Shown here piece after piece: positions 2,872-64,000 of a stretch of DNA of 64,000 bases. The notes below the pieces were generated by a model, which saw nothing but the letters and a program-made list of their open reading frames with translations, was not told where the DNA came from and ran no database searches. Made by a program: the position numbers and the translations under genes. The stretch's first letter is position 1; each line of letters starts with the position of its first letter. The DNA comes from a virus: positions 21,023-85,022 of the IMG/VR virus record IMGVR_UViG_3300029156_000002. One strand, given 5' to 3'.

Positions 2872-2882
2872 CGCTGGTCCTC

Positions 2883-4172: not shown

Positions 4173-4179
4173 ATTAAAA

Positions 4180-5313
4180 TTACTCGATCGTTAGGGTATA
4201 AAGAAAACCAGGAGTTTGGTCGGTTGTAGCAAGCATAGCGATCGGCCCAACGATATCGATCACGGAAAGAGTTTTCAGCCCCCCGTTCCATGTGTATCGC
4301 GATGGATCTCGAATCTCAGTTGTGTTCGCCATCACATCGTCAAAAAGAACATCGACTCTGTTTTTTGACGTAGCAATGACGGATTGAATTGTGGGAACTA
4401 TACCTATTCCGGTGAATGTTCCTGAATTGAATGCTAGATCGACAGAGTTGCCAAAATCGTCTGTAACGAGCGGCTCAACTTTAGCAGTAAAAACTTTGCC
4501 AATTGTTTGCTCTGTAACTTGAATTCGAGCCTGTGTTCTGTCGTTTGAGACATCAACGCCGGTATAATAAACTGGGAAGCCATCAGCTGGTTCAATGAAC
4601 GTATAAGCGTTCAGAGACTGAAGATTCAATTCGTCCATTGGTTCGCTAAACGTGATGATCAACTCATTGCCGTCGCCAGAAAGAACGAAACTGTCTGCCT
4701 TTGGAAGCTCTGCTAAACCCGTAAACTCAATCTCTGTGTCTGGAACGATAGTGTTTCCTGAGACGTCAGCCACACCGCTCAGAAAGCGAGCCGTGTGTGG
4801 CTGACCGTCGCTCATCTTAGGAACGATGGTGAAGCGAATTGTATCCGAGGCTTGTAAAGCTACAGAAATAAGTTCGAGCCTTTTGCCAGTCAGCTCAGAA
4901 GTTAGAATGTATTGATCTCGATCTTCGACTGTATTTGCATCAACATCTTCATCGAATTGAACATCAATTTCAGTAAAACTTATTGCCGTTGCTAAGATAG
5001 GAACAGGTCCATCGCCGACTGCCGTAAACGAAGCGGTCCGAAATGATGGGTCCATCGGCTCCGCACTGACGTTCTGAAGAAACGTGCTGGCCGTAACCGT
5101 ATGAAGTTGGTTATCAAGCGGATCGTTCTGGAGCGTTAGACGTACGCGTGCTGGGTTTGCTGGAAGAGTTACGCCAGTTAGGGTGATTGTTGGGCTGATG
5201 GAATAGCTAGATGTATTAACGAACAGGCCAGTACGATCCATCACTTGGTCGAATGTCAGTTCGATCTCAGTAGGAGAAACCTGAACGGCCGAAAGTAACT
5301 GCGGAGCACTCAT
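4180..5313 (-). CDS. Virion protein with tandem bacterial Ig-like (SbsA/Big_5-like) domains
   Basis: Repeated units such as IELTFDQVMD, IDVQFDEDVD, LIITFSEPMD, VDVLFDDVMA, each followed by a Y-x-I motif and V..V.D..GN strands. Confidence 0.65.
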   Translation of the reverse strand: MSAPQLLSAVQVSPTEIELTFDQVMDRTGLFVNTSSYSISPTITLTGVTLPANPARVRLTLQNDPLDNQLHTVTASTFLQNVSAEPMDPSFRTASFTAVGDGPVPILATAISFTEIDVQFDEDVDANTVEDRDQYILTSELTGKRLELISVALQASDTIRFTIVPKMSDGQPHTARFLSGVADVSGNTIVPDTEIEFTGLAELPKADSFVLSGDGNELIITFSEPMDELNLQSLNAYTFIEPADGFPVYYTGVDVSNDRTQARIQVTEQTIGKVFTAKVEPLVTDDFGNSVDLAFNSGTFTGIGIVPTIQSVIATSKNRVDVLFDDVMANTTEIRDPSRYTWNGGLKTLSVIDIVGPIAMLATTDQTPGFLYTLTIE

Positions 5314-5316
5314 AGC

Positions 5317-7485
5317 TTACACGAACTCGATCTGAATGTTCCCGGCGATAGGAAGTTGTCGGCCCGAAAGCCCCACGTCTGTGGCGGGCTCAATGATGTT
5401 CACGTTCTGAATGCTAGTCGAAACTTTGTGAATCTCGTGGTCGATGCGTGACAACGCAACTGTCTCGCCAAAGTCCCACTCAAAGCTAAGGCCATCATTT
5501 GTCCTTGCTTCAGGTTGGAAAACTCGACGCAGCTGATTCTCAATTTGCAAACGAATCACACCCGTTGCTTGGATTTCAACGCGAATATCGATTGGTTTCT
5601 GAATGTAGTTCTTTGCCGTGACCTTCTGGTTGCTCACGAAGTGCGCGACGACTTGCGGTCTAGCAAATTTATCGCCATTGAAAAAGAGTTCAAGTTCTTC
5701 TAGCTGAGTTGTCGTCGCAGCGCCTCCGCCCTTAGCGACCACAACAAGCTCAACCGTCTTAGGCCCGAAAGCTTCCTCAATTGCAAAGGCTCGGGAGTAG
5801 GGTTGCGCGCCATTGTCATCAACGAAGCGAGTTGTAAGATTCGGCAAGTCATCAGCTGAGATAGCGACGTCCTTAGATCGCAAAGTCGCAGGCCCGGTTT
5901 GCTTAGTTATCTCAAGGCTGCATGCGTCTGCACCTTCTGAAGCGCTCCAACCCGCGGCTTGCCTAGGGTTCGTGATGCTGTTGACAAATGACAACCCGGC
6001 GTTATCAAGCGTGATGCGGTTCGCCCCAACGTTGCCGTCATTTTCTGCTCCAAAGCGGAACGTGTATGCAATATTACTGGCGCCTACGGGCGGGATGCGC
6101 CCTTGATCTCCGTTGCCGAAAATGATCTGTGCTTGGTCGGTGCCCGTAAGTTGAACAACATAGTGCTCGTCGAGCGGGGTGCTGTTGATGAAGTCGCGGA
6201 CCCGCGTCCATGCTGTAGCATTAACAGTCAGAACAGCTGTCGAGTCGTCGATGAAGTTCTCGCGACTGGTTAGGAACGTTTGGTTAGCTGATCCATCGCT
6301 TGAACCAAGGGGCGAATCGATCTGAGTCTGCCCCTGAGTAACATCACCAATCATGTACTGAGCACCCTGAGTCATCAGGCCGTATTGGACGACTGGGGAA
6401 GATGCGTCAGGATCGATGATGCGGAATCGAATCCAGAAAGCTTCCACGCCTTCGATCGTTGTCTTCTTCCAATTCTGCGTGTCGCTTTGTGGAACTGTGA
6501 ACGAAATAGCCCCCGTCGTTCCGAAAACGCCTGTTGTTTCATCGTCGAGCGTAATCTGATCCCAATCAGAACCAACGATGTAATCGTCAGAATCCGTAGA
6601 CACAGCGGATTGGCCTAGCAATGTGGTCGTCTCTACGATGTTCTGCGAACCTGTCCAAACAACCTCAGCATCTTCAGATGCGCCGGTCTCAACTAAAGTT
6701 ATGCGAACTAACGTCCCAGCTCTATTTTCGTCGCCAAGGTAGCCGTTCACGAAGACCTGTAGTTTGTTGCCTAGAACAGCAACTGAATCAGGCTTAGCTT
6801 TCTGGAAGTCGCCATTGTAGAACTCCCAAATGCCTACGTTGTCTGGATTCTCTGTCGTGAAGAACAGATCGATGCGATTGTGCATCGCGTCCACATGACC
6901 AAAATAAACAGCGTCGTTGTTCGCTGGGGAAGCCCAAGGTGTCCAGTCTGTTGCTGGTGTTGTTGGGTCGTTGGCTTCTGTGGTGAAGTCTGTAAAGACT
7001 CCATTTTCTTCAGCTAGAACGCTAGAAAATTTAGATGTCCCGTCAGCGTCTGTGATCGAAAGAGCCTCGTTCGCTTCAACGAAGATTTTGATCCCTGTGT
7101 CTGGATCCTCTTCGGTTGACGCTTGTGCTCCATCGGGAACGATTGTTGCTGTTGTAGTAAATACGCGACTCAGCTCATAAAGCAGCTCAGTCTGCGATGG
7201 CCGAGCAGGAGACATTTCATAGTCAATCAACCGCAAATGATCACGCACGCTCTGTTGTAGAGCTGATGTTCGCAGAAGAGCCTCGTTTGCCGCCATGTCA
7301 ATAACCGCATTGGTATAATGCCCGACAACAGCGAAGCTGCGTAAAAGTTGGATCGAAGGCTCAAACTCACTTTCGTCTGTCAGCTCTGGCGCATTAATAC
7401 GCTTGAACGTCAGAAGGCTTTCCAGAATCTGAGGATAGAAAAAAGCAAACTGAAAGTCAGGGACGGTAACTGTATTAGAGGCCAT
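5317..7485 (-). CDS. Baseplate J-like wedge protein with large insertion
   Basis: N-terminal NEALLRTSALQQSVRDHLRLIDY; LGSSDGSANQTF; FGNGDQGRIPP; GAENDGNVGANRI; C-terminal DVAISADD...VELVVV. Confidence 0.85.
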   Translation of the reverse strand: MASNTVTVPDFQFAFFYPQILESLLTFKRINAPELTDESEFEPSIQLLRSFAVVGHYTNAVIDMAANEALLRTSALQQSVRDHLRLIDYEMSPARPSQTELLYELSRVFTTTATIVPDGAQASTEEDPDTGIKIFVEANEALSITDADGTSKFSSVLAEENGVFTDFTTEANDPTTPATDWTPWASPANNDAVYFGHVDAMHNRIDLFFTTENPDNVGIWEFYNGDFQKAKPDSVAVLGNKLQVFVNGYLGDENRAGTLVRITLVETGASEDAEVVWTGSQNIVETTTLLGQSAVSTDSDDYIVGSDWDQITLDDETTGVFGTTGAISFTVPQSDTQNWKKTTIEGVEAFWIRFRIIDPDASSPVVQYGLMTQGAQYMIGDVTQGQTQIDSPLGSSDGSANQTFLTSRENFIDDSTAVLTVNATAWTRVRDFINSTPLDEHYVVQLTGTDQAQIIFGNGDQGRIPPVGASNIAYTFRFGAENDGNVGANRITLDNAGLSFVNSITNPRQAAGWSASEGADACSLEITKQTGPATLRSKDVAISADDLPNLTTRFVDDNGAQPYSRAFAIEEAFGPKTVELVVVAKGGGAATTTQLEELELFFNGDKFARPQVVAHFVSNQKVTAKNYIQKPIDIRVEIQATGVIRLQIENQLRRVFQPEARTNDGLSFEWDFGETVALSRIDHEIHKVSTSIQNVNIIEPATDVGLSGRQLPIAGNIQIEFV

Positions 7486-44202: not shown

Positions 44203-44402
44203 GGCGCGATACCTTCCTCCCATGCGTAAGTGTCTGGGCCGTCTTCTCCACAGCATACCTCGCGAACCCAAGGGATATAATTGTCACCTGTCAAGCAGCG
44301 AACCATCTGATCGATAACCCACATTTTGTGATGAGCGCCATCGAAGCCACCACACTCAGCAGCAATACCCAAAGCTTCTTTGATTTTGTCTTCGTTTGTC
44401 AT
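44199..44402 (-). CDS. Conserved phage hypothetical protein
   Basis: GGFDGAHHKMWVIDQMVRCL...WEEGIAP; recalled as a recurrent phage family, unverified. Confidence 0.65.
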   Translation of the reverse strand: MTNEDKIKEALGIAAECGGFDGAHHKMWVIDQMVRCLTGDNYIPWVREVCCGEDGPDTYAWEEGIAP

Positions 44403-44758
44403 ACTTCGATAACCTTCAAGCTAAAAAGCTCGGCTTTCTCTTTCATGTCGTTTGTACCACTTCCCCCAGGGAAAGCAAAGCAAAATCTCTTGCCTTCTTG
44501 CTTGCTAGCAAATTCAGCCATTTGAAAGTTCCTGCGCCGTCCGCCCCGAGGCCCTAAGCTCCAATCAGCTGGGAAAGTTTTGACTTTGATCCCGCACCAC
44601 TCAGCAATCATTTTGGCTTCTGAGTCAATGCCTGTCGCGCCGCCTTGTATAACAAGTCCGATGTTGTGCTCGCGAAAAAGTTTGACAAGCTTATTTTGCT
44701 TCTCTGCGTTTATGTGTCCGTGCCTTGAGCCGGTTATGATTGCTGTGTTGCCGGTCAT
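44399..44758 (-). CDS. SLOG-family protein (YspA/DUF2493-like)
   Basis: IITGSR, VIQGGATGIDSEA, FPADW...G..RNFQM, AFPGGSGTNDM. Confidence 0.85.
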   Translation of the reverse strand: MTGNTAIITGSRHGHINAEKQNKLVKLFREHNIGLVIQGGATGIDSEAKMIAEWCGIKVKTFPADWSLGPRGGRRRNFQMAEFASKQEGKRFCFAFPGGSGTNDMKEKAELFSLKVIEV

Positions 44759-45840: not shown

Positions 45841-46449
45841 TTATGGACTGGAACTTTCTGCAATTTTGCAAGCAGAAACGAATGCTGGTTGCTTGATGCG
45901 CCTGTATTCTTCTAGCGCTGGTTGCTTGATGCGCTGGTACTCTTCATACGCTGGTTGCTTGATGCGCAGGAACTTTTCTAGCGCTGGTTGCTTGATGCGC
46001 TGGTACTCTTCATACGCTAATTGCTCGATGCGCTGGTACTCTTCTAGCGCTGGTTGCTTGATGCGCTGGTACTCTTCTAGCGCTGGTTGCTTGATGCGCT
46101 GGTACTCTTCTAGCGCTGGTTGCTTGATGCGCTGGTACTCTTCTAGCGCTGGTTGCTGAATGCGCTGGTACTCTTCTAGCGCTGGTTGCTCGATGCGCCT
46201 GTATTCTTCTAGCGCTAATTGCTGAATGCGCCTGTATTCTTCTAGCGCTGGTTGCTTGATGCGCTGGTACTCTTTCTGTGCTTTCTCAGGCAAGAAAGGC
46301 AGAATGAACAAGAAGTCTAATCCAGCGTCGATAGCCTTCTTAGCGTTTTCAGCGTTGACCTTGCATCCTTCTGGGAAAACGTTAGAAAATGCTTTGATTC
46401 CGCTTTCGCAAGCGCCCTTAGATTCAAGGAATTCCTTTGTGATTTTCAT
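45841..46449 (-). CDS. 11-aa repeat protein A (11 full + 1 partial repeats)
   Basis: MKITKEFLESKGACESG N-domain, (QRIKQPALEEY)n, FVSAC end. Confidence 0.85.
   Translation of the reverse strand: MKITKEFLESKGACESGIKAFSNVFPEGCKVNAENAKKAIDAGLDFLFILPFLPEKAQKEYQRIKQPALEEYRRIQQLALEEYRRIEQPALEEYQRIQQPALEEYQRIKQPALEEYQRIKQPALEEYQRIKQPALEEYQRIEQLAYEEYQRIKQPALEKFLRIKQPAYEEYQRIKQPALEEYRRIKQPAFVSACKIAESSSP
45883..46266. repeat. 33-bp tandem repeat array A
   Basis: Consensus coding unit CAGCGCATCAAGCAACCAGCGCTAGAAGAGTAC; 384 bp. Confidence 0.95.
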
Positions 46450-46715
46450 CCCACCGTAACCTCGCACGTAAGCGCCTTGCTTTCGAACTCTTCAATCGCT
46501 TCAGCGCCCCAAAGCAAAAGAGCTGGGATAGGTGTGACCGTGGTGTTGATTTTCGAGAGTTCGCACGTAAAGCCTAAAAGTTTATAGCTGTCAAGTTCAA
46601 TATAGTTGAACAAACCAACCTTCAAGCATTTCTTGCCTTCACGCTCAAAAGTATCTCCGCTAAGAAGGTCGGTAAATAGGACGGTTCCTTGCTTCTTTTT
46701 GCCTACGATCTTCAC
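46446..46715 (-). CDS. Small beta-barrel family protein (member 3)
   Basis: GTG start; VLFTDLLSGDTFE...PALLLWG. Confidence 0.6.
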   Translation of the reverse strand: MKIVGKKKQGTVLFTDLLSGDTFEREGKKCLKVGLFNYIELDSYKLLGFTCELSKINTTVTPIPALLLWGAEAIEEFESKALTCEVTVG

Positions 46716-46717
46716 AG

Positions 46718-46936
46718 CTAACCCTCTCCCCAAAGCAAAGTCGCTGGTACGCGGATAACGCACATCCGCCCTGGATCAGAGCTTAGGCAATCGATTTTGT
46801 TTGCGTCGAAGTTGAAGAAGCCGCCGCCTACATTCGTGACCATGCACTTAGCTCCGTCGATGAATTGAAATGTATCGCCTACCGCAAGTTCGCTGAATAG
46901 CGTAGAGGCATTGCTGTTTGTTTCTTTGATCTTCAT
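46718..46936 (-). CDS. Small beta-barrel family protein (member 4)
   Basis: TLFSELAVGDTFQF...PATLLWG. Confidence 0.6.
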   Translation of the reverse strand: MKIKETNSNASTLFSELAVGDTFQFIDGAKCMVTNVGGGFFNFDANKIDCLSSDPGRMCVIRVPATLLWGEG

Positions 46937-47343
46937 GCTTTTGCTTTTGCTTTTGCTTTTTCTTCTGGAAGTTCTGGGGGAATTGCCCTTGCGACTACGT
47001 TATCTTTGTAGCACAAAGAAAGTTTATGTGGGCCAAAATCTGAACCTTTTTCAACAGCAACGCCAAAGAGCTTGGGGTTCCCGTGCGACCAAAAGCCTCT
47101 GGAGCCGAATACGCTTGACCGGTAATAGAAGTTGAGATCCATGACGAGCATAAGATTCGCAGGCATGATAAGCTTAAAGTTTTTGCGCTTTTCCTGCGTA
47201 AACGCCCAAATGTTTTCCCTGAACAGCGTATGCACGCACGACAGAAGTTCACGCCCAAAAGCACAAATATCGTTAGGCCCCTTGAAGCCGAACTCTCTAA
47301 GCAGTTCGCCACAGATCTGTTCGTTCATTTCTTGTTTGCTCAC
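46933..47343 (-). CDS. Hypothetical protein
   Basis: Likely GTG start in a GTGA overlap. Confidence 0.5.
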   Translation of the reverse strand: MSKQEMNEQICGELLREFGFKGPNDICAFGRELLSCVHTLFRENIWAFTQEKRKNFKLIMPANLMLVMDLNFYYRSSVFGSRGFWSHGNPKLFGVAVEKGSDFGPHKLSLCYKDNVVARAIPPELPEEKAKAKAKA

Positions 47344-47624
47344 TTTGCTTCCTTGCCGATCTTGATGCCCGCGTTTACAGCATCTAGAATCATCCCGCCG
47401 ATCGTGCGATCCCACGTTAGATCCTCCGGGCACCCCTCGTAAGAAGATGCTAGGCCGTCCCACCAATCGAGAACGACCACGTCACCTTGCCACAAGGCAC
47501 AAGACGGAGCGTCCGAAAATTTTTTATCTTCATACGTGCATAGAACCAAACCAGTCCCCTGCCAATTCCTATCGATCGAAACTGGAAGCTCGTTGTCAAA
47601 TTCGAATGTTTGTTCTTTGCTCAT
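47340..47624 (-). CDS. Hypothetical protein
   Basis: Intact acidic ORF, coupled. Confidence 0.6.
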   Translation of the reverse strand: MSKEQTFEFDNELPVSIDRNWQGTGLVLCTYEDKKFSDAPSCALWQGDVVVLDWWDGLASSYEGCPEDLTWDRTIGGMILDAVNAGIKIGKEAK

Positions 47625-47902
47625 AGCTGGGGAAGTCTTGCCGATCTTAGCTTTGGGTGCTCGCCTGTGGATGGGTTTGTAATTTTTGGCTTACCCGTTT
47701 TTACCCAAGGGCAAGGCCGCACATTGATGCGTGTGAATTGAAACTTTAGTGGAGCGTCCCTGCATCTTTCCATTGCGTAGGGAGATTCAGAGAATATCAA
47801 GTAATCATCAACCGAGAGCCAAACGGTAACGTCGTCATGAACGCGAAAATGCTCTGAGTCTGTGCTCATGATCAGTTTCTTGATCAAATTATTGATGGTC
47901 AT
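47621..47902 (-). CDS. Hypothetical protein
   Basis: Likely start ATG 47902 (MTINNL). Confidence 0.5.
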   Translation of the reverse strand: MTINNLIKKLIMSTDSEHFRVHDDVTVWLSVDDYLIFSESPYAMERCRDAPLKFQFTRINVRPCPWVKTGKPKITNPSTGEHPKLRSARLPQL

Positions 47903-48011
47903 AGCTGGGAAGTTCTCTAGGCTCTTCCGACGAATGCTTAGCCGACGAGAGCTTGACAAGCTTTGAGCTTAGCCGACGATCAACGCTTGGAGCTAATCTA
48001 GCAAAAAAGTT

Positions 48012-48035
48012 GTTGAATTTGCTTGCTAAAAAGCT
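48012..48035. repeat. 24-bp direct repeat, copy 1
   Basis: GTTGAATTTGCTTGCTAAAAAGCT, identical to 49673-49696. Confidence 0.9.
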
Positions 48036-48045
48036 AAGGAAGTTC

Positions 48046-48414
48046 CTATGGCTTTGAGGCTTCATGGATCAGCCGCTGACCCTCTTGAAGCATCCAAGCT
48101 TTCAAGCGCTCTTCGTAGGTATCTAGGTCCTCTTCGTGTTGCTTGACACGCTGTTCATGCTGCTTTAGCTCCTCTTCGTATCGCTCATTGGGCACCACAA
48201 ACGTGATCCGCCAACCTTCTTGGCTAACGAAGTCTCTGTCAAGCGTGACGTCCGTGCCGCCTAGCTCCTTGATGCATTTGAGCAAGTCGTCAAGGGATTC
48301 TCCTGTATGATCAGAATAATCCGCATAATCAATTGTCAAAGTTTCTAGCGGAGGATCTGGCGGCCAAGAGCTTGGCTGATGTGGTTTGCTTTTGATATCT
48401 AGAAATGGATTCAT
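48046..48414 (-). CDS. Hypothetical protein, paralog of 32388..32720
   Basis: YSDHTGESL...NERYEEELKQHE...YEERLKAW. Confidence 0.6.
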   Translation of the reverse strand: MNPFLDIKSKPHQPSSWPPDPPLETLTIDYADYSDHTGESLDDLLKCIKELGGTDVTLDRDFVSQEGWRITFVVPNERYEEELKQHEQRVKQHEEDLDTYEERLKAWMLQEGQRLIHEASKP

Positions 48415-48674
48415 GCTTTGTTCTGCTTTTGTGTGCTAGCTTATGGTCAAGTTAATTTGCTAGAAAAGTTGGTCAAGAAGTTGCTTTGTAGCCTAGCTTA
48501 CATTAGCGTTATTTCGCTAAAAAAGTTGGTGGATTTTTTGCAGGTCGCACATTGCCCTAGATGCGGGCTTCGCGCACAATTTTGGGTATAGTGGGGGGTG
48601 CTATGCCTCACACATCCCTAGCATCTAAGCTATTGTGCTTTCCCTGCTCCTGTGCCCCTATGCAACTGTGCTTA

Positions 48675-48893
48675 TTAGCTGATCATGCTCTCTCCATTCG
48701 CCGCCGGCATCGCTGCAATAAACACAGACTCCCCAGCATCAAGCAAAACTGCTCGCAAGTTCTGAGCAAGAACGCTCATCCGCTCTTGTGGTTCAGCATC
48801 TGTCAGGATTTGTTGCACGACAGCATTTGCGCTGATGATGCTGTTACGCACGCTCACTGTAGCGCTGGTTAGCTTCTGCTCCTTGCTGTCCAT
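48675..48893 (-). CDS. Hypothetical protein (72 aa, leaderless)
   Basis: ATG 48893 (MDSKEQKL) lies 6 nt after a -10 box. Confidence 0.6.
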   Translation of the reverse strand: MDSKEQKLTSATVSVRNSIISANAVVQQILTDAEPQERMSVLAQNLRAVLLDAGESVFIAAMPAANGESMIS

Positions 48894-48899
48894 ACATAC

Positions 48900-48928
48900 A
48901 TCGTACATACACGCTTGCCCGGCGTCAA
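48900..48928 (-). promoter_or_regulatory. Leaderless promoter TTGACG-17-TACGAT, 6 nt to ATG
   Basis: Read directly from sequence. Confidence 0.75.
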
Positions 48929-49457
48929 GAACTTTCCTAGCTTTAAGCGCTAGAACCACACGTCATCCCTTAGCTTCATAGCGCCTTATGCGCATCAGCA
49001 GGCACGCTAGAGCGCTTGGTTCTCTTAGAACGTGCTAAAGCAGCTATATGCATGCAAACTCTCTTAGCGTGGCCGCTAGGGCGCTTATCATGCAGATTTA
49101 GCTTATGTGCGGTATCGCCAAGGGCGCTCTCTATGCATGCCCTGTGCCAAACGAAGCCAGGCACCTTAGCGTGCAAATTTAGAGCGTTGATATTCCTAAG
49201 CTTTGATGCTGGGAAAGTTGAATGATATCAAGGGGGCAAATTGGCTCTGTAGCAGGTCTAGCTAGGCCGCTAAGCGTTTGGCATACCTATTGATTTCATT
49301 ATCGCGCATAGGAATGTGACCTACGGTTAAATTCATCAGCTAAGGTGCCTAGGAGCTTTGAGCTTAGCTGCAGAAAAAGTTGGGGTGCTTTAGTAAGCAC
49401 TCTCTAGCGCTCCGCGGCTTATCCTCCATCCTGTGCATTCTCCCAGCACATAGAACG

Positions 49458-49491
49458 AAAAAAGCCCCCTAGCAGTTAAGCTAGAGAGCTT
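49458..49491 (-). terminator. Intrinsic terminator inside the non-coding region
   Basis: GCTCTCTAGC/GCTAGGGGGC stem (two G-U pairs) plus 6-T run. Confidence 0.7.
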
Positions 49492-49672
49492 GATTAGCTT
49501 ATGCAGCTTCCGTACCAAGGCAGCCTAGCATAGCTAACTCAGAAGCTACTTAAAATCGTTAGCATAATGCATGCCAGCTTGAAAGCTAATGATTACATGC
49601 TCTTAGGTTGGCACAGCCCGTGCAGGATGCACGTTGCATGCCAGCTCCCTTAGCTCACATGCCGTGTAACTC

Positions 49673-49696
49673 GTTGAATTTGCTTGCTAAAAAGCT
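49673..49696. repeat. 24-bp direct repeat, copy 2
   Basis: Identical to 48012-48035. Confidence 0.9.
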
Positions 49697-49911
49697 GATT
49701 GAATTAGAAAGTGCGCGGATCGCGCTTGGCGCGCTCGGTCACAACTCACCAACAAACCAACTTTCCTAGCTATCGAGAAACAAGTTGCATAAGCTAGCAA
49801 TTTCCCTTAGCTAAGGTGCAATTCCAAGGCATATAACGCAAAAAACACGAAAAGCATCATTTCTGATACAATTCGTGTCATAGAAGAGCGTTTTTAACTT
49901 TTTATGCTTTT

Positions 49912-50196
49912 TTAGCGTAAAGCGCTTGTATGCTTAGGGCTTTTATGCTTTCGCGCTAGCTTTGCGGCCTTAGCAAAATAGACAGACATTCTCTTGAGCT
50001 GATCGGCGGCATCGTAGCCTTGCGACTTCTCCCAGACAGCGCGATCTGCGCGATCTGCAGCTACAAGAATGCAGCGTAAAGCCTCCCTTTGTCCTTCTAG
50101 ATCGTCAATGACCTTCTCCAAGCCTTCTCGATCGTCTTGCTTGAGAAGCTCACGAATTTCTATGAATAACAGCTCTATATGCTCGTCAAAGCTCAT
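49912..50196 (-). CDS. Hypothetical protein, similar to 51350..51637
   Basis: Start ATG 50196 after GGGGAAG; LLKQDDREGL...REAL. Confidence 0.6.
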   Translation of the reverse strand: MSFDEHIELLFIEIRELLKQDDREGLEKVIDDLEGQREALRCILVAADRADRAVWEKSQGYDAADQLKRMSVYFAKAAKLARKHKSPKHTSALR

Positions 50197-50200
50197 CGGC

Positions 50201-50479
50201 CTAATCTTCCCCAGCGCAACGAATTGCTTCCTCTTCGCCATCTAGAAGTTTAGCGAAAAAATGAGCTAGCTTCAATTCTTCGACAAAGCCTGACTCATGA
50301 TAAGCGATAACGTCTTCGTTTCCTTGCCTGGTCAGCACTTCAGCACATTCAGCAGCATCTGCAAGACAGGCGCATAACGTTCGTGCGTCTCCCGCCTCAT
50401 TGCTTGAACGCTCCCTTAGCTTAAGGGCTTTCAAAAGCTGATCTAGCGCCTCTTGCACAGACATTTCCTTAGCGCTCAT
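50201..50479 (-). CDS. Hypothetical protein
   Basis: Start ATG 50479 after GGGGAAGG. Confidence 0.55.
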   Translation of the reverse strand: MSAKEMSVQEALDQLLKALKLRERSSNEAGDARTLCACLADAAECAEVLTRQGNEDVIAYHESGFVEELKLAHFFAKLLDGEEEAIRCAGED

Positions 50480-50927
50480 CGGCCTTGCCTTCCCCAGCTT
50501 CTTTGCTTTCATGCTCGATAAAGCGAATTTTTACGTTCGCTAGATAATACTCTATACCTTTGCTGTCCCATTCTTGCTTGCGTTCTAGCGCGTGGACGTA
50601 AAAATCAACCTCTTTTGGCCAAGAAGTTCGCTTTTTCAGACCGTCTAATAGCGCTAGGTATTTATCTTTGCTTGACGTGTCTCCATGCATGATCAGCTCT
50701 ACTATATCGTTAGCGGATGAATAAGCAAAATCTTCAGGCTCAAAACCCTTGCCGTCTTCGCGCCACCAAGGACAGAAGATCTCAACGTATTCATGTTCTT
50801 CTGCTGTCTCGTCATTCTCATAGGGCGAGCAAGTAGGCAAATGAGCGCTTGCGAGGGTATTGAATAATTCGCTTCGGAGCTTAGATGCAAATCTAGCTTT
50901 AAGCGTGTTTCCTGGATCGTATGACAC
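50469..50927 (-). CDS. Hypothetical protein, paralog of 50932..51345
   Basis: GTG 50927; ANDIVELI...DGLKKRTSWP. Confidence 0.6.
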   Translation of the reverse strand: MSYDPGNTLKARFASKLRSELFNTLASAHLPTCSPYENDETAEEHEYVEIFCPWWREDGKGFEPEDFAYSSANDIVELIMHGDTSSKDKYLALLDGLKKRTSWPKEVDFYVHALERKQEWDSKGIEYYLANVKIRFIEHESKEAGEGKADER

Positions 50928-50931
50928 CGGC

Positions 50932-51345
50932 CTAGCCTTCTTCCCCAGCTTCAACGAAACGAAGCATGATCGTCATGTCGAATAGCCTTTTGCTAGCATC
51001 ATCCTCATCCTCAGTTTCATTAACTTTGCTAACATAATAGCAAAACTGTTCTGGCCATTCTACACGCTTTTTCAAGCCATCAATCTTATCGCCATTTTCC
51101 ATAGCTGAATTAACGATCAAATCAAGCAAATCGTTTGCTGCTATCTGGGCATGAGAGTCTACATTATACTCGCTTTTTAGACCATCATATGGACATACCA
51201 ACGCTATATATGCACTTTCGCTAGAACGCTGATCTTCAAATCTTTCTAGCACAGGAAAGGGCATGTGCGTAGGCAGCATGTATCTCCGCAGATTCGCCTC
51301 TAATGCGTTAGAGAACTTTTTGATGTCATTTTCTTGCTCGTCCAC
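50932..51345 (-). CDS. Hypothetical protein, paralog of 50469..50927
   Basis: ANDLLDLI...DGLKKRVEWP. Confidence 0.6.
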   Translation of the reverse strand: MDEQENDIKKFSNALEANLRRYMLPTHMPFPVLERFEDQRSSESAYIALVCPYDGLKSEYNVDSHAQIAANDLLDLIVNSAMENGDKIDGLKKRVEWPEQFCYYVSKVNETEDEDDASKRLFDMTIMLRFVEAGEEG

Positions 51346-51349
51346 AGGT

Positions 51350-51637
51350 CTATTCTCCCAGCTCCTCTAGCTCCTTCGCTAGTTTTTTTGCCTCTTTTAA
51401 ATTCTTCTGAGCATCCCTATCAAGGCGCTTGATCCAGCTGCTATCGGGCTTCTCCTCTCTTGTCTTTATCCAATAGACAGCATCCTCGCTATCGATAGTT
51501 GCATTTTGCAACGCTTGTAGCGCTTTGCGTTCTAAATCAAAACTTTCGCTCAACGTTAGAAGCCCTTCATGATCCTCTTGCTTCCTTAGCTCTAGAATTT
51601 TTTCCGAAACCCTTTCAACTCGCTCTTTCAACATCAC
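51350..51637 (-). CDS. Hypothetical protein, similar to 49912..50196
   Basis: ELRKQEDHEGL...RKAL. Confidence 0.6.
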   Translation of the reverse strand: MMLKERVERVSEKILELRKQEDHEGLLTLSESFDLERKALQALQNATIDSEDAVYWIKTREEKPDSSWIKRLDRDAQKNLKEAKKLAKELEELGE

Positions 51638-52188
51638 AAATTCCCCTTAGCACGCTCAGTCTCTACAATTTTGCAAGCAGAAACGAACGCTTGTTGCTCA
51701 ATGCGCTTGTACTCTTTTAGCGCTGGTTGCTTGATGCGCTGGTACTTTTCTAGCGCTGGTTTCTTGATGCGCTGGTACTCTTCATGCGCTTGTTGCTGAA
51801 TGCGCCTGTACTCTTCATGCGCTTGTTGCTGAATGCGCCTGTACTCTTCATGCGCTTGTTGCTGAATGCGCTCGTATTCTTCTAACGCTTGTTGCTGAAT
51901 GCGCTGGTACTCTTCCCACGCTGGTTGCTCGATGCGCTGGTACTCTTCCTGCGCTGGTTGCTTGATGCGCTCGTATTCTTCATACGCTGGTTGCTGAATG
52001 CGCCTGTACTCTTTCTGTGCTTTCTCAGGCAAGAAAGGCAGGATAAACAAGAAATCTAATCCAGCGTCGATAGCCTTCTTAGCGTTTTCAGCGTTGACCT
52101 TGCATCCTTCTGGGAAAACGTTAGAAAATGTTTCGATTCCACTTTTGCAAGCGTGATGCTCTCTCAGCACCTCTTCTGTTATGTACAT
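51634..52188 (-). CDS. 11-aa repeat protein B (9 full + 1 partial repeats)
   Basis: Same N-domain and FVSAC end as protein A. Confidence 0.85.
   Translation of the reverse strand: MYITEEVLREHHACKSGIETFSNVFPEGCKVNAENAKKAIDAGLDFLFILPFLPEKAQKEYRRIQQPAYEEYERIKQPAQEEYQRIEQPAWEEYQRIQQQALEEYERIQQQAHEEYRRIQQQAHEEYRRIQQQAHEEYQRIKKPALEKYQRIKQPALKEYKRIEQQAFVSACKIVETERAKGNL
51688..52005. repeat. 33-bp tandem repeat array B
   Basis: Same unit as array A; 318 bp. Confidence 0.95.
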
Positions 52189-52433
52189 GATTTGCCTAAT
52201 GCTTCCGCTGCATGCCTTGCAGCTAGCTTTTTGTATTCATCTATCATGCTTTTCCTTTGATTCACAAGCTTAACGTCATCAAAATACCTGCAATTGAAGC
52301 ACAAAAGGTGTACTTGCTTTTCTAGCGCTCCTAGCATGTCAAATAAACTGTCAAGTTTGCGTAAAGGATCAGAGCTCTTTTGAGCATCATAAACGATGCG
52401 CTGAATCTCTTTTTCTAGCTGAACTGCATTCAC
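52179..52433 (-). CDS. Hypothetical protein
   Basis: Intact ORF. Confidence 0.55.
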   Translation of the reverse strand: MNAVQLEKEIQRIVYDAQKSSDPLRKLDSLFDMLGALEKQVHLLCFNCRYFDDVKLVNQRKSMIDEYKKLAARHAAEALGKSCT

Positions 52434-52441
52434 TTTGGACT

Positions 52442-52768
52442 CTAATCCTCAAACTGCTTGTCTTCTAGAATGTGAACAAACATAGATGCATCTGCATCCG
52501 CCTCAAGAATAGCTCGCCTAGCTTGAGAGCTGTGGAATTCAACAGACTGACTATGACCCGTTAGACCTAACTCGAAAGCCGCGCGCTTTGATGTAACATG
52601 CGCCCTAAGCTCGCCTAACATCTGCCCTAGGGTGCCAAAGGCATACATCTTCTGATCGTAGCTCCCTCCGCTCTCAGCAGCTGAGCATAGGCGCTCAATG
52701 AGGTCAGGCAGGCACGCTATAGCGTCTTTGTCAGCGTCTTTGGGCACGATCTGCGTCTCCTTGCTCAT
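52442..52768 (-). CDS. Hypothetical protein (near-leaderless)
   Basis: ATG 52768 (MSKETQ), 8 nt after TAAGCT. Confidence 0.6.
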   Translation of the reverse strand: MSKETQIVPKDADKDAIACLPDLIERLCSAAESGGSYDQKMYAFGTLGQMLGELRAHVTSKRAAFELGLTGHSQSVEFHSSQARRAILEADADASMFVHILEDKQFED

Positions 52769-52776
52769 TAGCGAAA

Positions 52777-52805
52777 AGCTTATCAATAAATTGCAAGTCT
52801 AGCAA
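52777..52805 (-). promoter_or_regulatory. Promoter TTGCTA-17-TAAGCT, 8 nt to ATG
   Basis: Read directly. Confidence 0.6.
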
Positions 52806-52912
52806 CTGATCGCTTGCATAGTCTGAACAAATCGCATGATTGAGCAGTTGCTGGGCAAGATTAAAGAGCTCATTAGCTGGTTTTCTCATCGGTCTACCTT
52901 TCCCAGCCCTTC

Positions 52913-53137
52913 TTACCCCTCACACGGAGCACAGAGAGCGATATTAGCATCATGCCAACCTCTGGCCCAGCTATCAAGCGCTGGGAGAGAGGAGCAGATC
53001 TCGTTTGTCGTGCTTTTCTTGATGTACTTCATCAAAGCAGGATCGTGGCAAGGAGTCGACATGCGGCCAGCCACGAAAGCGACAGTTCCGAGATCGTAGG
53101 CTTTCGCGTCGTGGAGTTTCTTCTTTGCGTCGTTCAT
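52913..53137 (-). CDS. Second Rmf-like small protein (leaderless)
   Basis: AYDLGTVAFVAGRMSTPC...WARGWHDA. Confidence 0.55.
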   Translation of the reverse strand: MNDAKKKLHDAKAYDLGTVAFVAGRMSTPCHDPALMKYIKKSTTNEICSSLPALDSWARGWHDANIALCAPCEG

Positions 53138-53143
53138 GTTTTG

Positions 53144-53171
53144 AGTATACCGGCTTTGAGCTTAGATGCAA
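53144..53171 (-). promoter_or_regulatory. Leaderless promoter TTGCAT-16-TATACT-CAAAAC-ATG
   Basis: Read directly; near-copy of the promoter at 54400-54427. Confidence 0.7.
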
Positions 53172-53197
53172 GCGAATTCTCGAACTTTTTTCGCTTT

Positions 53198-53767
53198 TTA
53201 AGCGCACTTGCCGCACGCAGAGATGAACGCTTGTTGCTTGATGCGCTCGTACTCTTCATACGCTGGTTGCTTGATGCGCTCGTACTCTTCATACGCTGGT
53301 TGCTGAATGCGCTGGTACTTTTCTAGCGCTGGTTGCTGAATGCGCTGGTACTTTTCTAGCGCTGGTTGCTCGATGCGCTGGTACTCTTTTAGCGCTTGTT
53401 GCTCGATGCGCTGGTACTCTTTTAGCGCTTGTTGCTCGATGCGCTGGTACTTTTCTAGCGCTGGTTGCTGAATGCGCTGGTACTTTTCTAGCGCTGGTTG
53501 CTGAATGCGCTGGTACTTTTCTAGCGCTGGTTGCTCGATGCGCTGGTACTTTTCTAGCGCTGGTTTCTGAATGCGCTCGTACTCTTCCTGTGCTTTCTCA
53601 GGCAAGCAAGGCAGGATAAACAAGAAATCTAATCCAGCGTCGATAGCCTTCTTAGCGTTCTCAGCGTTTACCTTGCACCCTTCTGGGAAAACGTTAGAAA
53701 ATGCTTCGATTCCACTTTCGCAAGCGTTCTTAGATTCAAGGAATTCTTTTGTGATTTCGTCGTTCAT
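53198..53767 (-). CDS. 11-aa repeat protein C (10 full + 1 partial repeats)
   Basis: Same N-domain; FISAC end. Confidence 0.85.
   Translation of the reverse strand: MNDEITKEFLESKNACESGIEAFSNVFPEGCKVNAENAKKAIDAGLDFLFILPCLPEKAQEEYERIQKPALEKYQRIEQPALEKYQRIQQPALEKYQRIQQPALEKYQRIEQQALKEYQRIEQQALKEYQRIEQPALEKYQRIQQPALEKYQRIQQPAYEEYERIKQPAYEEYERIKQQAFISACGKCA
53228..53578. repeat. 33-bp tandem repeat array C
   Basis: Same unit as array A; 351 bp. Confidence 0.95.
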
Positions 53768-55896: not shown

Positions 55897-56475
55897 TTAT
55901 AGCCCCGGAGCACGAAAAGTTACGTTGATCCTTTCGCCTACTGGCTTGCGCGTTTTTGGCACGCTGTGCAGCCATTCGCTTTGAACGCCGCGCCCCATGA
56001 ACAGCAGCGATCCGTGGGCAAGCTCAACTGCTAGTTTGTTAGGCAGCATCGCGCTTACCATCGTTGCCACAGGCACCTTGCGGCGCAGCAGAAAGCGCCT
56101 GGTTGCGCCGAGAGACACGGAAGCGATGATAGGGTCGCCCATATCCGGCTCATCGTCTGAGTGCCAAGCGACGCTATCTGAGCCGTCTTCGTAGCGATTT
56201 ACAAGCGCTGTGCTGAAGTGCGCGCTTTCAGGGATGACGGACTCTGCACGGATAGCTAGTGACGTGAGCACCGCGGGCATGGGCGTAGCTGGGAACGTGT
56301 GACCAGAGAAGCGGTAAGAGCGATCGCCATACCAAGCTTCTGTCCTAGGCACGCGTGCCCCGCACGCACGCCGCTGAACAAAAGTCAACTCTTTGCATTC
56401 CTGTAGCGCGATGTCCGGCTCAGCTACAAAGTTTTCGCAGTGATAGATTCCGGCTGCTAGGCGTGTCCACTTCAT
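55897..56475 (-). CDS. alkB: AlkB-family 2-oxoglutarate/Fe(II) dioxygenase (ALKBH2/3-like)
   Basis: VPRTEAWYG, NRYEDGSDSVAWHSDDE (HxD), IASVSLGATRRF, HGSLLFM, WLHSVPK, ERINVTFR. Confidence 0.92.
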   Translation of the reverse strand: MKWTRLAAGIYHCENFVAEPDIALQECKELTFVQRRACGARVPRTEAWYGDRSYRFSGHTFPATPMPAVLTSLAIRAESVIPESAHFSTALVNRYEDGSDSVAWHSDDEPDMGDPIIASVSLGATRRFLLRRKVPVATMVSAMLPNKLAVELAHGSLLFMGRGVQSEWLHSVPKTRKPVGERINVTFRAPGL

Positions 56476-63068: not shown

Positions 63069-64000
63069 TTATCCGTTCAACCTCTTCCGGATCTGAGCGA
63101 GCGTTTGCTTTCGATAAGGAATACCATTCTTGTAGACCGTCTGCAAGTCTCCCTTGCGTTCTTGCTCAACTGTTTGTTGCTGATAGAGCTTGCCGCCTTC
63201 CACGCGAAGCAGCCCACGTGCGGACTTCTTGACGCCTGAGTCAGTTACAGGATCCTTGAAGATGTCGCGGCCCTCTCCGTTCACTTCGCCGTACGTTGCC
63301 TTCATAGCGAAACCAAACGTGTCTCGCGTGTTGTATTGATAGGTGAAGCTTCCTACGCCAAAAACGATATTGTCCGAAGCGAAGCCCTTTTCTTTCAAGC
63401 CTGTCAGAATGGCCTCTGCACGCTGGAGAGTAATAGAATCTCCATAAATAAGACCAATATGCGAATCAAGCTGCTTGAAGCCCTGGACCGTCTCTGTGCC
63501 GCCGAACACATCCCAAAGACATTGGACCGCCCCCTTATATGCGGGGCTGCCAGGTTCAGCCTCAGGGTCTCCACAGATAATTTTCACCGGGTCTCCTGAG
63601 TCTGGGCGAATCACAACCTTTCCGTCCCGAGCCAAAATGTCTTCCTTCAGTTCCGACACGAACTCTGTAACGACACGCCAGAAGTCCCACGTATCCGACA
63701 CGATCGAGACAATGCCGGCCGGATAGAGATCATTCACAAGCCTTCGGAACGTCCCCAGCTCATTAGCTTTCTCACCCATACACATTACGCTGTGCTCAGT
63801 AGCTGGGACGCTAGCGCCTACAAGCTCTTCGTCTGAGTCAGCGCCGTAGTAACCTTCTAGAAAGTCGATCGCGGCAACCGTGTCCGTTCCCGAGAACGAG
63901 AGAAGGTGGCCGGCTCCCGAGATAGCAGCATCCTCAACGCTCGACATGCCGCGGAAAGAGAAGTCATGTGCCTGAAACTGAATACCCTCTCTGCTTGCGC
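63069..64000 (-). CDS. nampt: Nicotinamide phosphoribosyltransferase (5' end outside window)
   Basis: Frame open to the window edge: ...QAHDFSFRGMSS; FSGTDT, SVPATEHSVMC, SIVSDTWDFW, VIRPDSGDP, IYGDSIT, VFGVGSFTYQ, TRDTFGFAMK, KDPVTD.G.KKSARG. Confidence 0.95.
   Translation of the reverse strand, partial: ASREGIQFQAHDFSFRGMSSVEDAAISGAGHLLSFSGTDTVAAIDFLEGYYGADSDEELVGASVPATEHSVMCMGEKANELGTFRRLVNDLYPAGIVSIVSDTWDFWRVVTEFVSELKEDILARDGKVVIRPDSGDPVKIICGDPEAEPGSPAYKGAVQCLWDVFGGTETVQGFKQLDSHIGLIYGDSITLQRAEAILTGLKEKGFASDNIVFGVGSFTYQYNTRDTFGFAMKATYGEVNGEGRDIFKDPVTDSGVKKSARGLLRVEGGKLYQQQTVEQERKGDLQTVYKNGIPYRKQTLAQIRKRLNG

What the first reader, a model, noticed from the sequence alone, without database searches (positions are those of the whole stretch)
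45841..53767. Three paralogous 11-residue repeat proteins with variation on one helical stripe
Seen: A (45841-46449, 11+1 units), B (51634-52188, 9+1) and C (53198-53767, 10+1) share a ~61-aa N-domain (ACxSGI..FSNVFPEGCKVNAENAKKAIDAGLDFLFILP) and an FxSAC end. In x-R-I-x-Q-P-A-x-E-E-Y, R2, I3 and A7 are invariant and Y11 nearly so. Position 1 varies (Q/R/E/K/L), as do position 4 (K/Q/E) and position 8 (L/Y/Q/W/H), the last through multi-base codon swaps; 6 (P/L/Q), 5, 9 and 10 vary less. Established: 11 residues make about 3 helical turns, so each position lines up along the helix. Inference: Y11/I3/A7 form a fixed packing face, and the most variable residues 1/4/8 (each one residue after a core position) form an adjacent tunable stripe. 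That suggests a modular binding rod or decoy, loosely like TALE/PPR repeat codes, kept in three versions with different strings.
Basis: partly seen in the sequence, partly recalled or inferred. Interest (0 to 1): 0.8.

Follow-up and report, generated by a model that had tools for sequence, protein, structure and literature searches.

The report
Phage head-and-stalk 11-residue repeat proteins
An uncultivated phage carries three copies of a small protein with a folded head and a long helical stalk of 11-residue repeats; it belongs to a large, unnamed phage family whose otherwise near-identical repeats keep changing at the same few positions.

Summary
Genes A (45841-46449), B (51634-52188) and C (53198-53767), all on the minus strand, share a 58-60 residue head, 11, 9 and 10 full units of x-R-I-x-Q-P-A-x-E-E-Y plus a half unit, and an AF[VI]SAC tail. 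R2, I3 and A7 are invariant. Positions 1, 4 and 8 vary most.

The genes lie in the small-gene accessory block of a 107-kb IMG/VR myovirus contig. They belong to a large, unannotated, mostly viral family. Other phages carry 3-5 copies. The same repeat follows at least four head types, and each head type has its own tail.

The stalk is predicted as one long helix. A two-copy model gives an antiparallel dimer (ipSAE 0.49, best control 0.00) in which each tail docks on the partner's head. Positions 3, 4, 7, 8, 10 and 11 form the interface.

In four other phage loci, units differ at positions 1, 4 and 8 far more than at silent sites (pN 0.21-0.50, pS 0.005-0.10). In this window the contrast is weak (0.32 against 0.21).

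A TALE-like code is untested. Function is unknown; I favour a bivalent rod with a diversified surface.

This scan found the same family earlier on other DNA (e1-5352383).

The parts
45841..46449 (-). Gene A, 202 aa: head, 11 full units plus a half unit, and tail
   Evidence: ORF; units. The ATG overlaps the stop of the upstream ORF 46446-46763 (ATGA).
46276..46449 (-). A head domain (residues 1-58): small alpha/beta domain with an invariant Ala13 and a nearly invariant Cys14
   Evidence: AF2 with a 42-row alignment: pLDDT 91.8, pTM 0.76. Head-only BLASTP to P0031: 49% identity, E 2e-14. Conserved columns.
45904..46266 (-). A stalk: 11 hendecad units (residues 62-182)
   Evidence: Helix 55-186. 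Interface positions 3, 4, 7, 8, 10, 11.
45841..45903 (-). A terminal half unit and tail (RRIKQPAFVSACKIAESSSP) plus stop
   Evidence: Residues 185-198 touch the partner's head residues 30-58 in the dimer model.
51634..52188 (-). Gene B, 184 aa: head, 9 full units plus a half unit, and tail
   Evidence: 78% identical to A.
51709..52005 (-). B stalk: 9 units. Position 8 reads Y-Q-W-L-H-H-H-L-L.
53198..53767 (-). Gene C, 189 aa: head, 10 full units plus a half unit, and tail AFISACGKCA
   Evidence: 82% identical to A.
53249..53578 (-). C stalk: 10 units. Position 8 reads eight L then two Y.

Best explanation
A, B and C are recently recombined paralogs of a widespread, unnamed phage accessory protein with three parts. 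The first is a small folded head that looks like the N-terminal domain of E. coli YdhT. The second is a stalk of 11-residue (hendecad) repeats. The third is a short tail that matches the head type.

Inferred assembly: two chains pair antiparallel through the I3/A7/Y11 seam. The invariant alanine sits at the core position that points at the helix axis. Each tail docks on the partner's head. The result would be a rod of roughly 15-18 nm (9-11 full units) with one composite knob at each end.

Shown: unit number and the residues at positions 1, 4, 6 and 8 change quickly through unit duplication and recombination. In other phages of the family, the changes at 1/4/8 are kept far above the silent-site level.

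More speculative: the flank formed by positions 4, 8 and 1 is a diversifying contact surface. The three copies would then be length and surface variants of a bivalent binder or cross-linker that acts inside the host, with an unknown target.
For: Family and architecture:
- An exhaustive phmmer search gives 1120 cluster representatives at E<=1e-3 and 246 at E<=1e-10. Many proteins of 120-200 aa match from residue 1 through the stalk.
- The head is homologous without the repeats.
- The motif is kept with different codons in other phages, so selection acts on the protein.

Helix and dimer:
- The single chain is predicted as one long helix.
- The two-copy model scores ipSAE 0.49 against a best control of 0.00. 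That mark was reached by 20 of 30 proteins solved as pairs and 1 of 23 solved as single chains. The runs agree in at least 98% of contacts, and partner pLDDT is at least 84.
- Contacts such as 76 with 175 and 57 with 193-197 show that the model is antiparallel.
- PMC9858780 states that dimeric hendecad coiled coils need a small core residue, particularly alanine. A7 is 30/30 here and 98% family-wide.

Tail matches head, as expected if they touch:
- About 29 of 31 MCxF..GHGAI heads end in AFW..LF...NR...W[KR].
- Most of the 8 His-rich heads (about 7) end in a W[DN]G..I[FV] motif.
- Six of 9 further heads end in (D/E/S)GY.

Diversification:
- pN at positions 1/4/8 is 0.21-0.50, against overall pS of 0.005-0.10, in L006-L009.
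- Allele counts over five loci are 61 replacement against 10 silent (p 0.03).
- At positions 1/4/8, my tally from the printed codon lists is 44 against 2.

Multi-copy and phage context:
- Copies per locus: 5 in L006, 3 in L007, 4 in L008, 3 in L028.
- The genes sit in small-gene blocks, or between the terminase and replication genes.
- Only 12 matching stretches were found in one genome each of 185,579 species, all in MAG contigs.
Against: - No experiment and no solved relative exists. The dimer is a model of the kind that is easily produced for amphipathic helices.
- A proline every 11 residues is unusual inside a long coiled coil.
- In this window, pN at positions 1/4/8 is not clearly above pS.
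- Unit pairs are not independent, so the pN/pS contrasts are descriptive rather than formal tests.
- No external partner is known. No informative domain fusions were found.
- The host is unknown.
Confidence: 0.45

Rival explanations
1. The stalk is only a spacer or scaffold. Positions 1, 4 and 8 vary because they are weakly constrained. Slippage and recombination among 33-bp units shuffle a few unit types, and there is no recognition function.
For: - In the window, pN at positions 1/4/8 (0.32) is about equal to pS.
- Identical units sit side by side (A5-A7, B6-B7, C3-C4, C5-C6).
- ATT always precedes CAG, and ATC precedes AAG or GAG, which marks a few founder unit types.
- A shares its 5' end with C and its tail with B, so the copies are mosaics.
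- Copy lengths form ladders (units 6-10 in L006, 10-12 here), as a random walk in unit number would give.
Against: - Four other loci show pN at positions 1/4/8 that is 3.6 to about 40 times the silent-site diversity.
- At those positions there are 44 replacement against 2 silent alleles (my tally).
- Position 8 is rich in W, Y and R, which are typical contact residues. That these residues mark contact sites is my own knowledge.
Confidence: 0.25
2. The variable positions set self-pairing. They keep each paralog a homodimer, or fix the register of a very repetitive coiled coil, and do not bind an outside target.
For: - Positions 4 and 8 lie in the modelled dimer interface, with position 8 of one chain against position 4 of the other.
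- Paralogs in one genome mostly differ in length.
Against: No cross-strand covariation between positions 8 and 4, 8 and 8, 4 and 4, or 1 and 1 at any antiparallel offset in 66 proteins. The largest z was 2.7 in 28 tests.
Confidence: 0.12
3. The repeat is a membrane- or lipid-binding amphipathic 11-mer helix, like apolipoproteins, perilipins, alpha-synuclein or group-3 LEA proteins.
For: - The units are 11-mers punctuated by proline.
- The hydrophobic moment is coherent over more than 100 residues only at 98.2 degrees per residue (0.45-0.50).
- There are weak Perilipin_2 matches (E 5e-4, 19.9 bits). Relatives also give weak Apolipoprotein matches.
Against: - All these scores are below the curated cut-offs (19.9 against 30.1; 26 against 90).
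- Mean hydrophobicity is -0.33 to -0.49.
- The apolar stripe is only I/A/Y wide.
- The invariant alanine fits a dimeric hendecad core, and the model buries that stripe.
Confidence: 0.08
4. The 33-bp arrays act at the DNA or RNA level, as iterons, recombination sites or hairpins, and the open frames are incidental.
For: - Each unit holds a 5-bp inverted repeat, GCGCT...AGCGC.
- The arrays are nearly identical at the DNA level.
Against: - The same amino-acid motif is encoded by different codons in unrelated phages.
- The head and tail are conserved protein domains.
- The frames are open in every copy.
Confidence: 0.02

Closest known systems
Hendecad coiled-coil rods of bacterial cytoskeletal proteins FilP and Scy (PMC9858780)
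   Same: - 11-residue periodicity.
- An alanine-rich core, as expected for dimers.
- A long, nearly unsupercoiled rod.
- Weak NCBIfam matches to Scy (18-25 bits).
   Different: - No homology: the Scy cut-off is 1040 bits.
- These proteins are 120-230 aa phage proteins with near-perfect repeats and a proline at position 6.
- The predicted pairing is antiparallel, and the head and tail are unrelated to DivIVA-like domains.
E. coli YdhT N-terminal domain (Pfam PF27195, YdhT_N)
   Same: - The head model superposes on YdhT residues 1-42 (rmsd 1.7 A over 43 residues, 26% identity).
- Atlas structural neighbours of the head carry YdhT_N, fused to bactofilin, collagen or MORN repeats.
- A relative's head (L004) precedes beta-helix-like repeats.
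   Different: - The Foldseek E-value is 2.8, which is not significant for so short a domain.
- The HMM is not in the library here.
- As far as I know, the function of YdhT is itself unknown.
TALE, PPR and Pumilio code repeats
   Same: Tandem repeats that are nearly identical at the DNA level, with a few hypervariable codons at fixed positions. Several versions are kept per genome.
   Different: - The unit is one 11-residue stretch of a continuous helix, not a 33-36 residue helical hairpin.
- The stalk is near neutral in charge.
- There is no evidence of nucleic-acid binding or of one unit reading one target unit.
Exchangeable apolipoproteins and perilipins (11-mer amphipathic helices)
   Same: Proline-punctuated 11-mers, and the unit pattern P-A-L-E-E-Y-x-R-I.
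   Different: Pfam scores are below the cut-offs. The apolar face is narrow, and there is no lipid context.
Alpha-actinin-type antiparallel rod dimers (functional analogy only, from my own knowledge)
   Same: [quoted passage not shown]
   Different: Unrelated in sequence. Here the rod is a two-helix hendecad coiled coil, and cross-linking is only inferred.
Earlier finding of this scan, e1-5352383 (eight copies in a 77-kb freshwater-sediment phage)
   Same: The same head plus a variable-length 11-residue stalk, with multiple recombining copies.
   Different: A different phage and copy number. That report stressed gene-boundary cassettes; this one adds the antiparallel model, the head-tail matching and the pN/pS contrast.

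Membership tests
Hendecad (11/3) coiled coil | 11-residue period with apolar core positions spaced 4-4-3 | tested here: met
   I3, A7 and Y11 in all units. Family-wide: I/V 98%, A 98%, Y 96%.
Hendecad (11/3) coiled coil | Small residue, particularly alanine, at the axis-pointing core position when the bundle is a dimer (PMC9858780) | tested here: met
   A7 is 30/30 here and 98% in 538 family units.
Hendecad (11/3) coiled coil | Helices associate into a bundle | tested here: inconclusive
   The two-copy model scores ipSAE 0.49 against a best control of 0.00. That mark was reached by 20 of 30 solved pairs and 1 of 23 single chains. This is a prediction only.
FilP/Scy family | Sequence match above the NCBIfam cut-off | tested here: not met
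   NF041483 scores 18.5-24.8 bits against a cut-off of 1040.
YdhT_N (PF27195) | HMM match above the gathering score | not testable with these tools
   PF27195 is not in the Pfam copy available here.
YdhT_N (PF27195) | Same fold as YdhT residues 1-42 | tested here: inconclusive
   TM by query 0.57, rmsd 1.7 A over 43 residues, probability 0.54, E 2.8. Atlas neighbours carry YdhT_N in 14-100% of members.
Apolipoprotein / perilipin 11-mer helices | Pfam match above the gathering score | tested here: not met
   Perilipin_2 scores 16.6-19.9 bits against 30.1. Apolipoprotein appears only in relatives, at 25-26 bits against 90.
TALE/PPR-type code repeats | Near-identical tandem repeats with hypervariable residues at fixed positions | tested here: met
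TALE/PPR-type code repeats | Helical-hairpin unit of about 33-36 residues | tested here: not met
   The unit is 11 residues within one continuous predicted helix.
TALE/PPR-type code repeats | Each unit reads one unit of a polymer target | not testable with these tools
   No target is known.
Diversity-generating retroelement target | Reverse transcriptase in the genome and adenine-specific variation | tested here: not met
   No RVT_1 match in the contig, which is 76% complete. Variant codons differ at all four bases.
Phi29 p4 late activator (PF05464) | Domain-level match to the whole profile | tested here: not met
   A totals 28.6 bits against a cut-off of 27, but no single stretch passes and only profile positions 93-124 are hit. 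B and C score 14.4 and 17.3 bits. The total is a sum over repeats.

The most novel reading that the evidence does not exclude
The hendecad stalk is a programmable surface. Recombination among 33-bp units, with selection at positions 1, 4 and 8, would write different residue strings along one flank of a rigid antiparallel rod. A phage could then keep a small library of rods of graded length and surface that bind or cross-link periodic host or rival-phage targets. This would be a helical-rod counterpart of repeat-code proteins, evolving in an arms race.
Probability: 0.15. Interest if true: 0.8.

Novelty: new variant of a known kind. Interest (0 to 1): 0.55.

Why it matters
- Hendecad coiled coils are little explored (PMC9858780). 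This is a large and almost purely viral family of them. Pfam (the copy here), PHROGs, NCBIfam and PADLOC give it no qualifying match, and I found no paper on it.
- The family joins three features rarely seen together. The repeats are kept uniform at the DNA level. A few codons are kept diverse. Several copies of different length sit in one genome.
- If the antiparallel dumbbell model is right, the family offers a simple natural scaffold in which rod length and surface can be changed unit by unit.
- It also points to an unknown early-infection function shared by phages of many host phyla.
- If the variation proves neutral, the family is simply a common phage coiled-coil spacer.

Tried and rejected
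Database and structure searches that gave nothing useful:
- Pfam, PHROGs, NCBIfam and PADLOC gave no family-level match for A, B or C. phrog_21347 matched the head only weakly (E 0.08).
- PF24703 and PF21805, suggested by the Atlas, do not match in the contig.
- PDB searches with the head found nothing, by sequence or by Foldseek.
- VIA-align's best scores were Z 3-4 to SAM domains, below the noise level stated for helical folds.
- No near or protein-level relatives were found among 50,697 deposited phages. The only hit was a repeat-only match in an 813-aa Salmonella phage protein.
- The word-index search with the head alone found nothing.

Spurious or uninformative hits:
- The top long hits of the exhaustive search (P0001-P0003, P0005, P0012, P0060) are unrelated 11-residue repeats of other proteins. 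The count of 1120 is therefore inflated.
- The search for longer fused forms gave one in-frame metallophosphoesterase junction, probably a read-through or gene-call artefact, and one 984-aa protein.

Tests that were negative or could not be run:
- The covariation test for antiparallel register coding was negative.
- The promoter and terminator scan was uninformative.
- Literature searches on YdhT and on hendecads in phages found no description of the family.


Full report
**1.

Three minus-strand ORFs lie at 45841-46449 (A, 202 aa), 51634-52188 (B, 184 aa) and 53198-53767 (C, 189 aa). Tandem Repeats Finder reports 33-bp arrays inside each, with scores of 596, 356 and 513. These are the only three copies in the contig.

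Read in register, A has 11 full units of x-R-I-x-Q-P-A-x-E-E-Y, B has 9 and C has 10. Each array ends in a half unit that runs into AFVSAC or AFISAC.

Over the 30 full units:
- R2 (always CGC), I3 and A7 (always GCG) never change. Y11 changes once.
- Entropy is highest at position 4 (1.55 bits), position 8 (1.48) and position 1 (1.37), followed by position 6 (1.05).
- Position 8 uses CTA, TAT, CAT, CAG, TGG and TTA.

**2. Setting**

The window is part of a 106,975-bp linear IMG/VR virus record, estimated 76% complete. It encodes a tail sheath, tape measure protein, baseplate wedge, portal and large terminase, so it is a myovirus. It has no close relative among deposited phages; its terminase is at most 28% identical to any of them.

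The three genes sit in a long run of small minus-strand genes between the structural module and an AlkB-like oxygenase and a NAMPT gene. A's start codon overlaps the stop of the gene before it.

From the Ala-Cys motif to the first repeat, the head DNA is nearly identical in the three copies. Similarity stops just outside the coding region. A shares its first codons with C and its tail with B, so the copies are recombinant mosaics. Identical units sit side by side within arrays, which points to local duplication.

**3. It is a large, unnamed, mostly viral family**

An exhaustive phmmer search of 1.84 billion cluster representatives gave 1120 hits at E<=1e-3 and 246 at E<=1e-10. The longest top hits are unrelated 11-residue repeats of other proteins, so the total is inflated. 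Most of the 143 short hits, however, carry the same motif.

In 90 proteins and 538 units the consensus is E-[KR]-[IV]-x-x-[PSA]-A-[WLYR]-[AE]-E-Y.

The head is homologous on its own. It is 49% identical to the head of P0031 (E 2e-14). In a 42-row alignment one alanine is invariant and the following cysteine is nearly so.

The same stalk follows at least four head types, and each head type has its own tail:
- The Ala-Cys head, as in this window, ends in a short A-[FLI]-x-x-A helix.
- The MCxFxSW...GHGAI head ends in AFW..LF...NR...W[KR] in about 29 of 31 cases.
- The His-rich head ends in a W[DN]G..I[FV] motif in most of 8 cases (about 7 by my reading of the printed tails).
- A further head type ends in (D/E/S)GY in 6 of 9 cases.

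Multi-copy sets recur: five copies in L006, three in L007, four in L008 and three in L028. They lie in small-gene blocks, or between the terminase and replication genes.

A strict two-unit DNA pattern found only 12 stretches in one genome each of 185,579 species. All were MAG contigs, from many phyla.

No library names the family, and I found no paper on it. This scan met the same family before in another phage (e1-5352383).

**4. Structure**

Folded alone, A is predicted as a small head (two short strands and four short helices) followed by one helix from residue 55 to 186 at pLDDT about 90. With an alignment, the head folds at pLDDT 91.8 and pTM 0.76.

The head has no clear solved relative. 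Its best named look-alike is the first 42 residues of E. coli YdhT: rmsd 1.7 A, 26% identity, E 2.8, which is not significant. Atlas neighbours carry the new Pfam family YdhT_N, fused to bactofilin, collagen or MORN repeats. In L004 the same kind of head precedes beta-helix-like repeats. So this appears to be a head that is joined to fibrous or repeat modules. The YdhT_N HMM is not in the library here.

On an 11/3 helical wheel:
- A7, Y11 and I3 lie at 0, 33 and 327 degrees.
- Positions 4, 8 and 1 lie at 65, 98 and 131 degrees on one flank.
- E10, P6 and R2, all conserved, lie on the other flank.
- The hydrophobic moment is coherent over more than 100 residues only at 98.2 degrees per residue (0.45-0.50).

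A two-copy model gave ipSAE 0.49 against a best control of 0.00. That mark was reached by 20 of 30 proteins solved as pairs and by 1 of 23 solved as single chains. The runs agree in at least 98% of contacts, and partner pLDDT is at least 84.
- The model is antiparallel (76 with 175, 65 with 189, 57 with 193-197).
- The interface uses positions 3, 4, 7, 8, 10 and 11 of every unit.
- The tail (residues 185-198) packs on the partner's head (residues 30-58).

This is a model, not a measurement, but two independent points fit it. First, dimeric hendecad coiled coils are expected to need alanine at the axis-pointing core position (PMC9858780), and A7 is invariant. Second, tails match head types across the family. 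The matching would also fit a head-to-tail polymer.

**5. Is the variation more than drift?**

Among the window's 30 units, pN at positions 1/4/8 is 0.32. It is 0.007 at positions 2/3/7/11, and overall pS is 0.21. The silent diversity comes almost entirely from two common silent variants, ATC/ATT at I3 and GAA/GAG at E10. The window alone is therefore inconclusive.

In four other phage loci the contrast is strong.

| Locus | pN at 1/4/8 | Overall pS |
|---|---|---|
| This window | 0.32 | 0.21 |
| L006 | 0.50 | 0.046 |
| L007 | 0.37 | 0.10 |
| L008 | 0.34 | 0.018 |
| L009 | 0.21 | 0.005 |

Counting alleles over the five loci gives 61 replacement against 10 silent (binomial p 0.03 against a 24% silent expectation). 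At positions 1/4/8 my tally from the printed codon lists is 44 against 2. Across 90 proteins, within-protein entropy also peaks at positions 4, 8 and 1.

Caveats: unit pairs are not independent, and silent sites per unit are few. These contrasts are therefore descriptive.

No reverse transcriptase is present in the contig, and the changes are not adenine-specific, so this is not a diversity-generating retroelement.

**6. What the variable flank does is open**

Position 8 is W, L or Y in 75% of family units and R in 9%. In the model it is half buried against position 4 of the other chain.

A test for cross-strand covariation at antiparallel offsets was negative. That gives no support to a self-sorting or register code, although the test is weak.

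The apolipoprotein or perilipin likeness stays below every cut-off, and the apolar stripe is narrow. The Phi29 p4 Pfam total for A (28.6 bits against a cut-off of 27) is a sum over repeats hitting one C-terminal helix of the profile, and no single stretch passes.

**7. Verdict**

The helical-stripe geometry and the idea of several kept versions are supported and hold across a large phage family. Diversifying change at positions 1, 4 and 8 is well indicated in relatives but not in this window alone.

The TALE/PPR-like binding code and the decoy role remain untested. They are weakened by the model placing positions 4 and 8 at the edge of the self-interface.

My preferred reading is an antiparallel dumbbell-shaped dimer with composite head-tail knobs and a fast-evolving flank, acting as a bivalent binder inside the host. 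The assembly part is moderately supported and the functional part is inference.

Noticed in passing
window 50469-50954 and 50932-51345 (minus strand): Two adjacent small genes are paralogs of each other (27% identity, E 2e-16). They share a DGLKKR..WP motif and have no Pfam match.
   Followed up: partly
window 49912-50241, 50201-50512 and 51350-51637 (minus strand): Two short helical proteins (49912-50241, 50201-50512) start with a similar K-x-x-x-G-K-x-R-P-M-S motif and look like another small paralog set. The third (51350-51637) is a similar short helical protein that lacks that motif. Seen by eye only.
   Followed up: no
window 44399-44758 (minus strand): A 119-aa protein matches the YspA/cpYpsA-related SLOG family (PF10686), just under the cut-off (27.0 bits against 28.2).
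   Followed up: no
window 55897-56475 and 63069-63947 (minus strand): An AlkB-like 2OG-Fe(II) oxygenase (PF13532, 97 bits) and a nicotinamide phosphoribosyltransferase (phrog_448, E 1e-117) are auxiliary genes next to the small-gene block.
   Followed up: no
window, every 33-bp unit, e.g. plus strand 51736-51756 and 53540-53560: Each unit contains a 5-bp inverted repeat, GCGCT...AGCGC, made by the A7-L8 and Q1-R2 codons. The terminator scan picks it up on the antisense strand. It may favour hairpins or slippage.
   Followed up: no
P0004, P0151, P0158 (L005:10001-10543) and about 30 other proteins: A second head type (about 100 aa, starting M-C-x-F-x-S-W and containing GHGAI; Pfam PF28068 on P0151) carries the same hendecad stalk and its own tail, AFW..LF...NR...W[KR]. 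The cysteine at residue 2 could be an N-terminal nucleophile.
   Followed up: partly
P0014, P0162, P0045, P0071: A third head type has a histidine cluster (HIHH or HCHH). In most cases its tail ends in C..CPWDG..IFP, which suggests a metal site built from head and tail together.
   Followed up: no
P0167 (476 aa; relative of the L006 copies): A metallophosphoesterase (PF12850, PF00149) is called in frame with a head-stalk-tail gene. The junction (PATKAPM) is the conserved upstream stretch seen before the L006 copies, so this is probably a read-through or a gene-call artefact.
   Followed up: partly
L006 (JGI 3300013288, 21.6-kb contig), 2-7404: Five paralogs have 6, 7, 8, 9 and 10 units, a complete ladder of stalk lengths in one phage. 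The window's copies have 10, 11 and 12 units counting the terminal half unit.
   Followed up: partly
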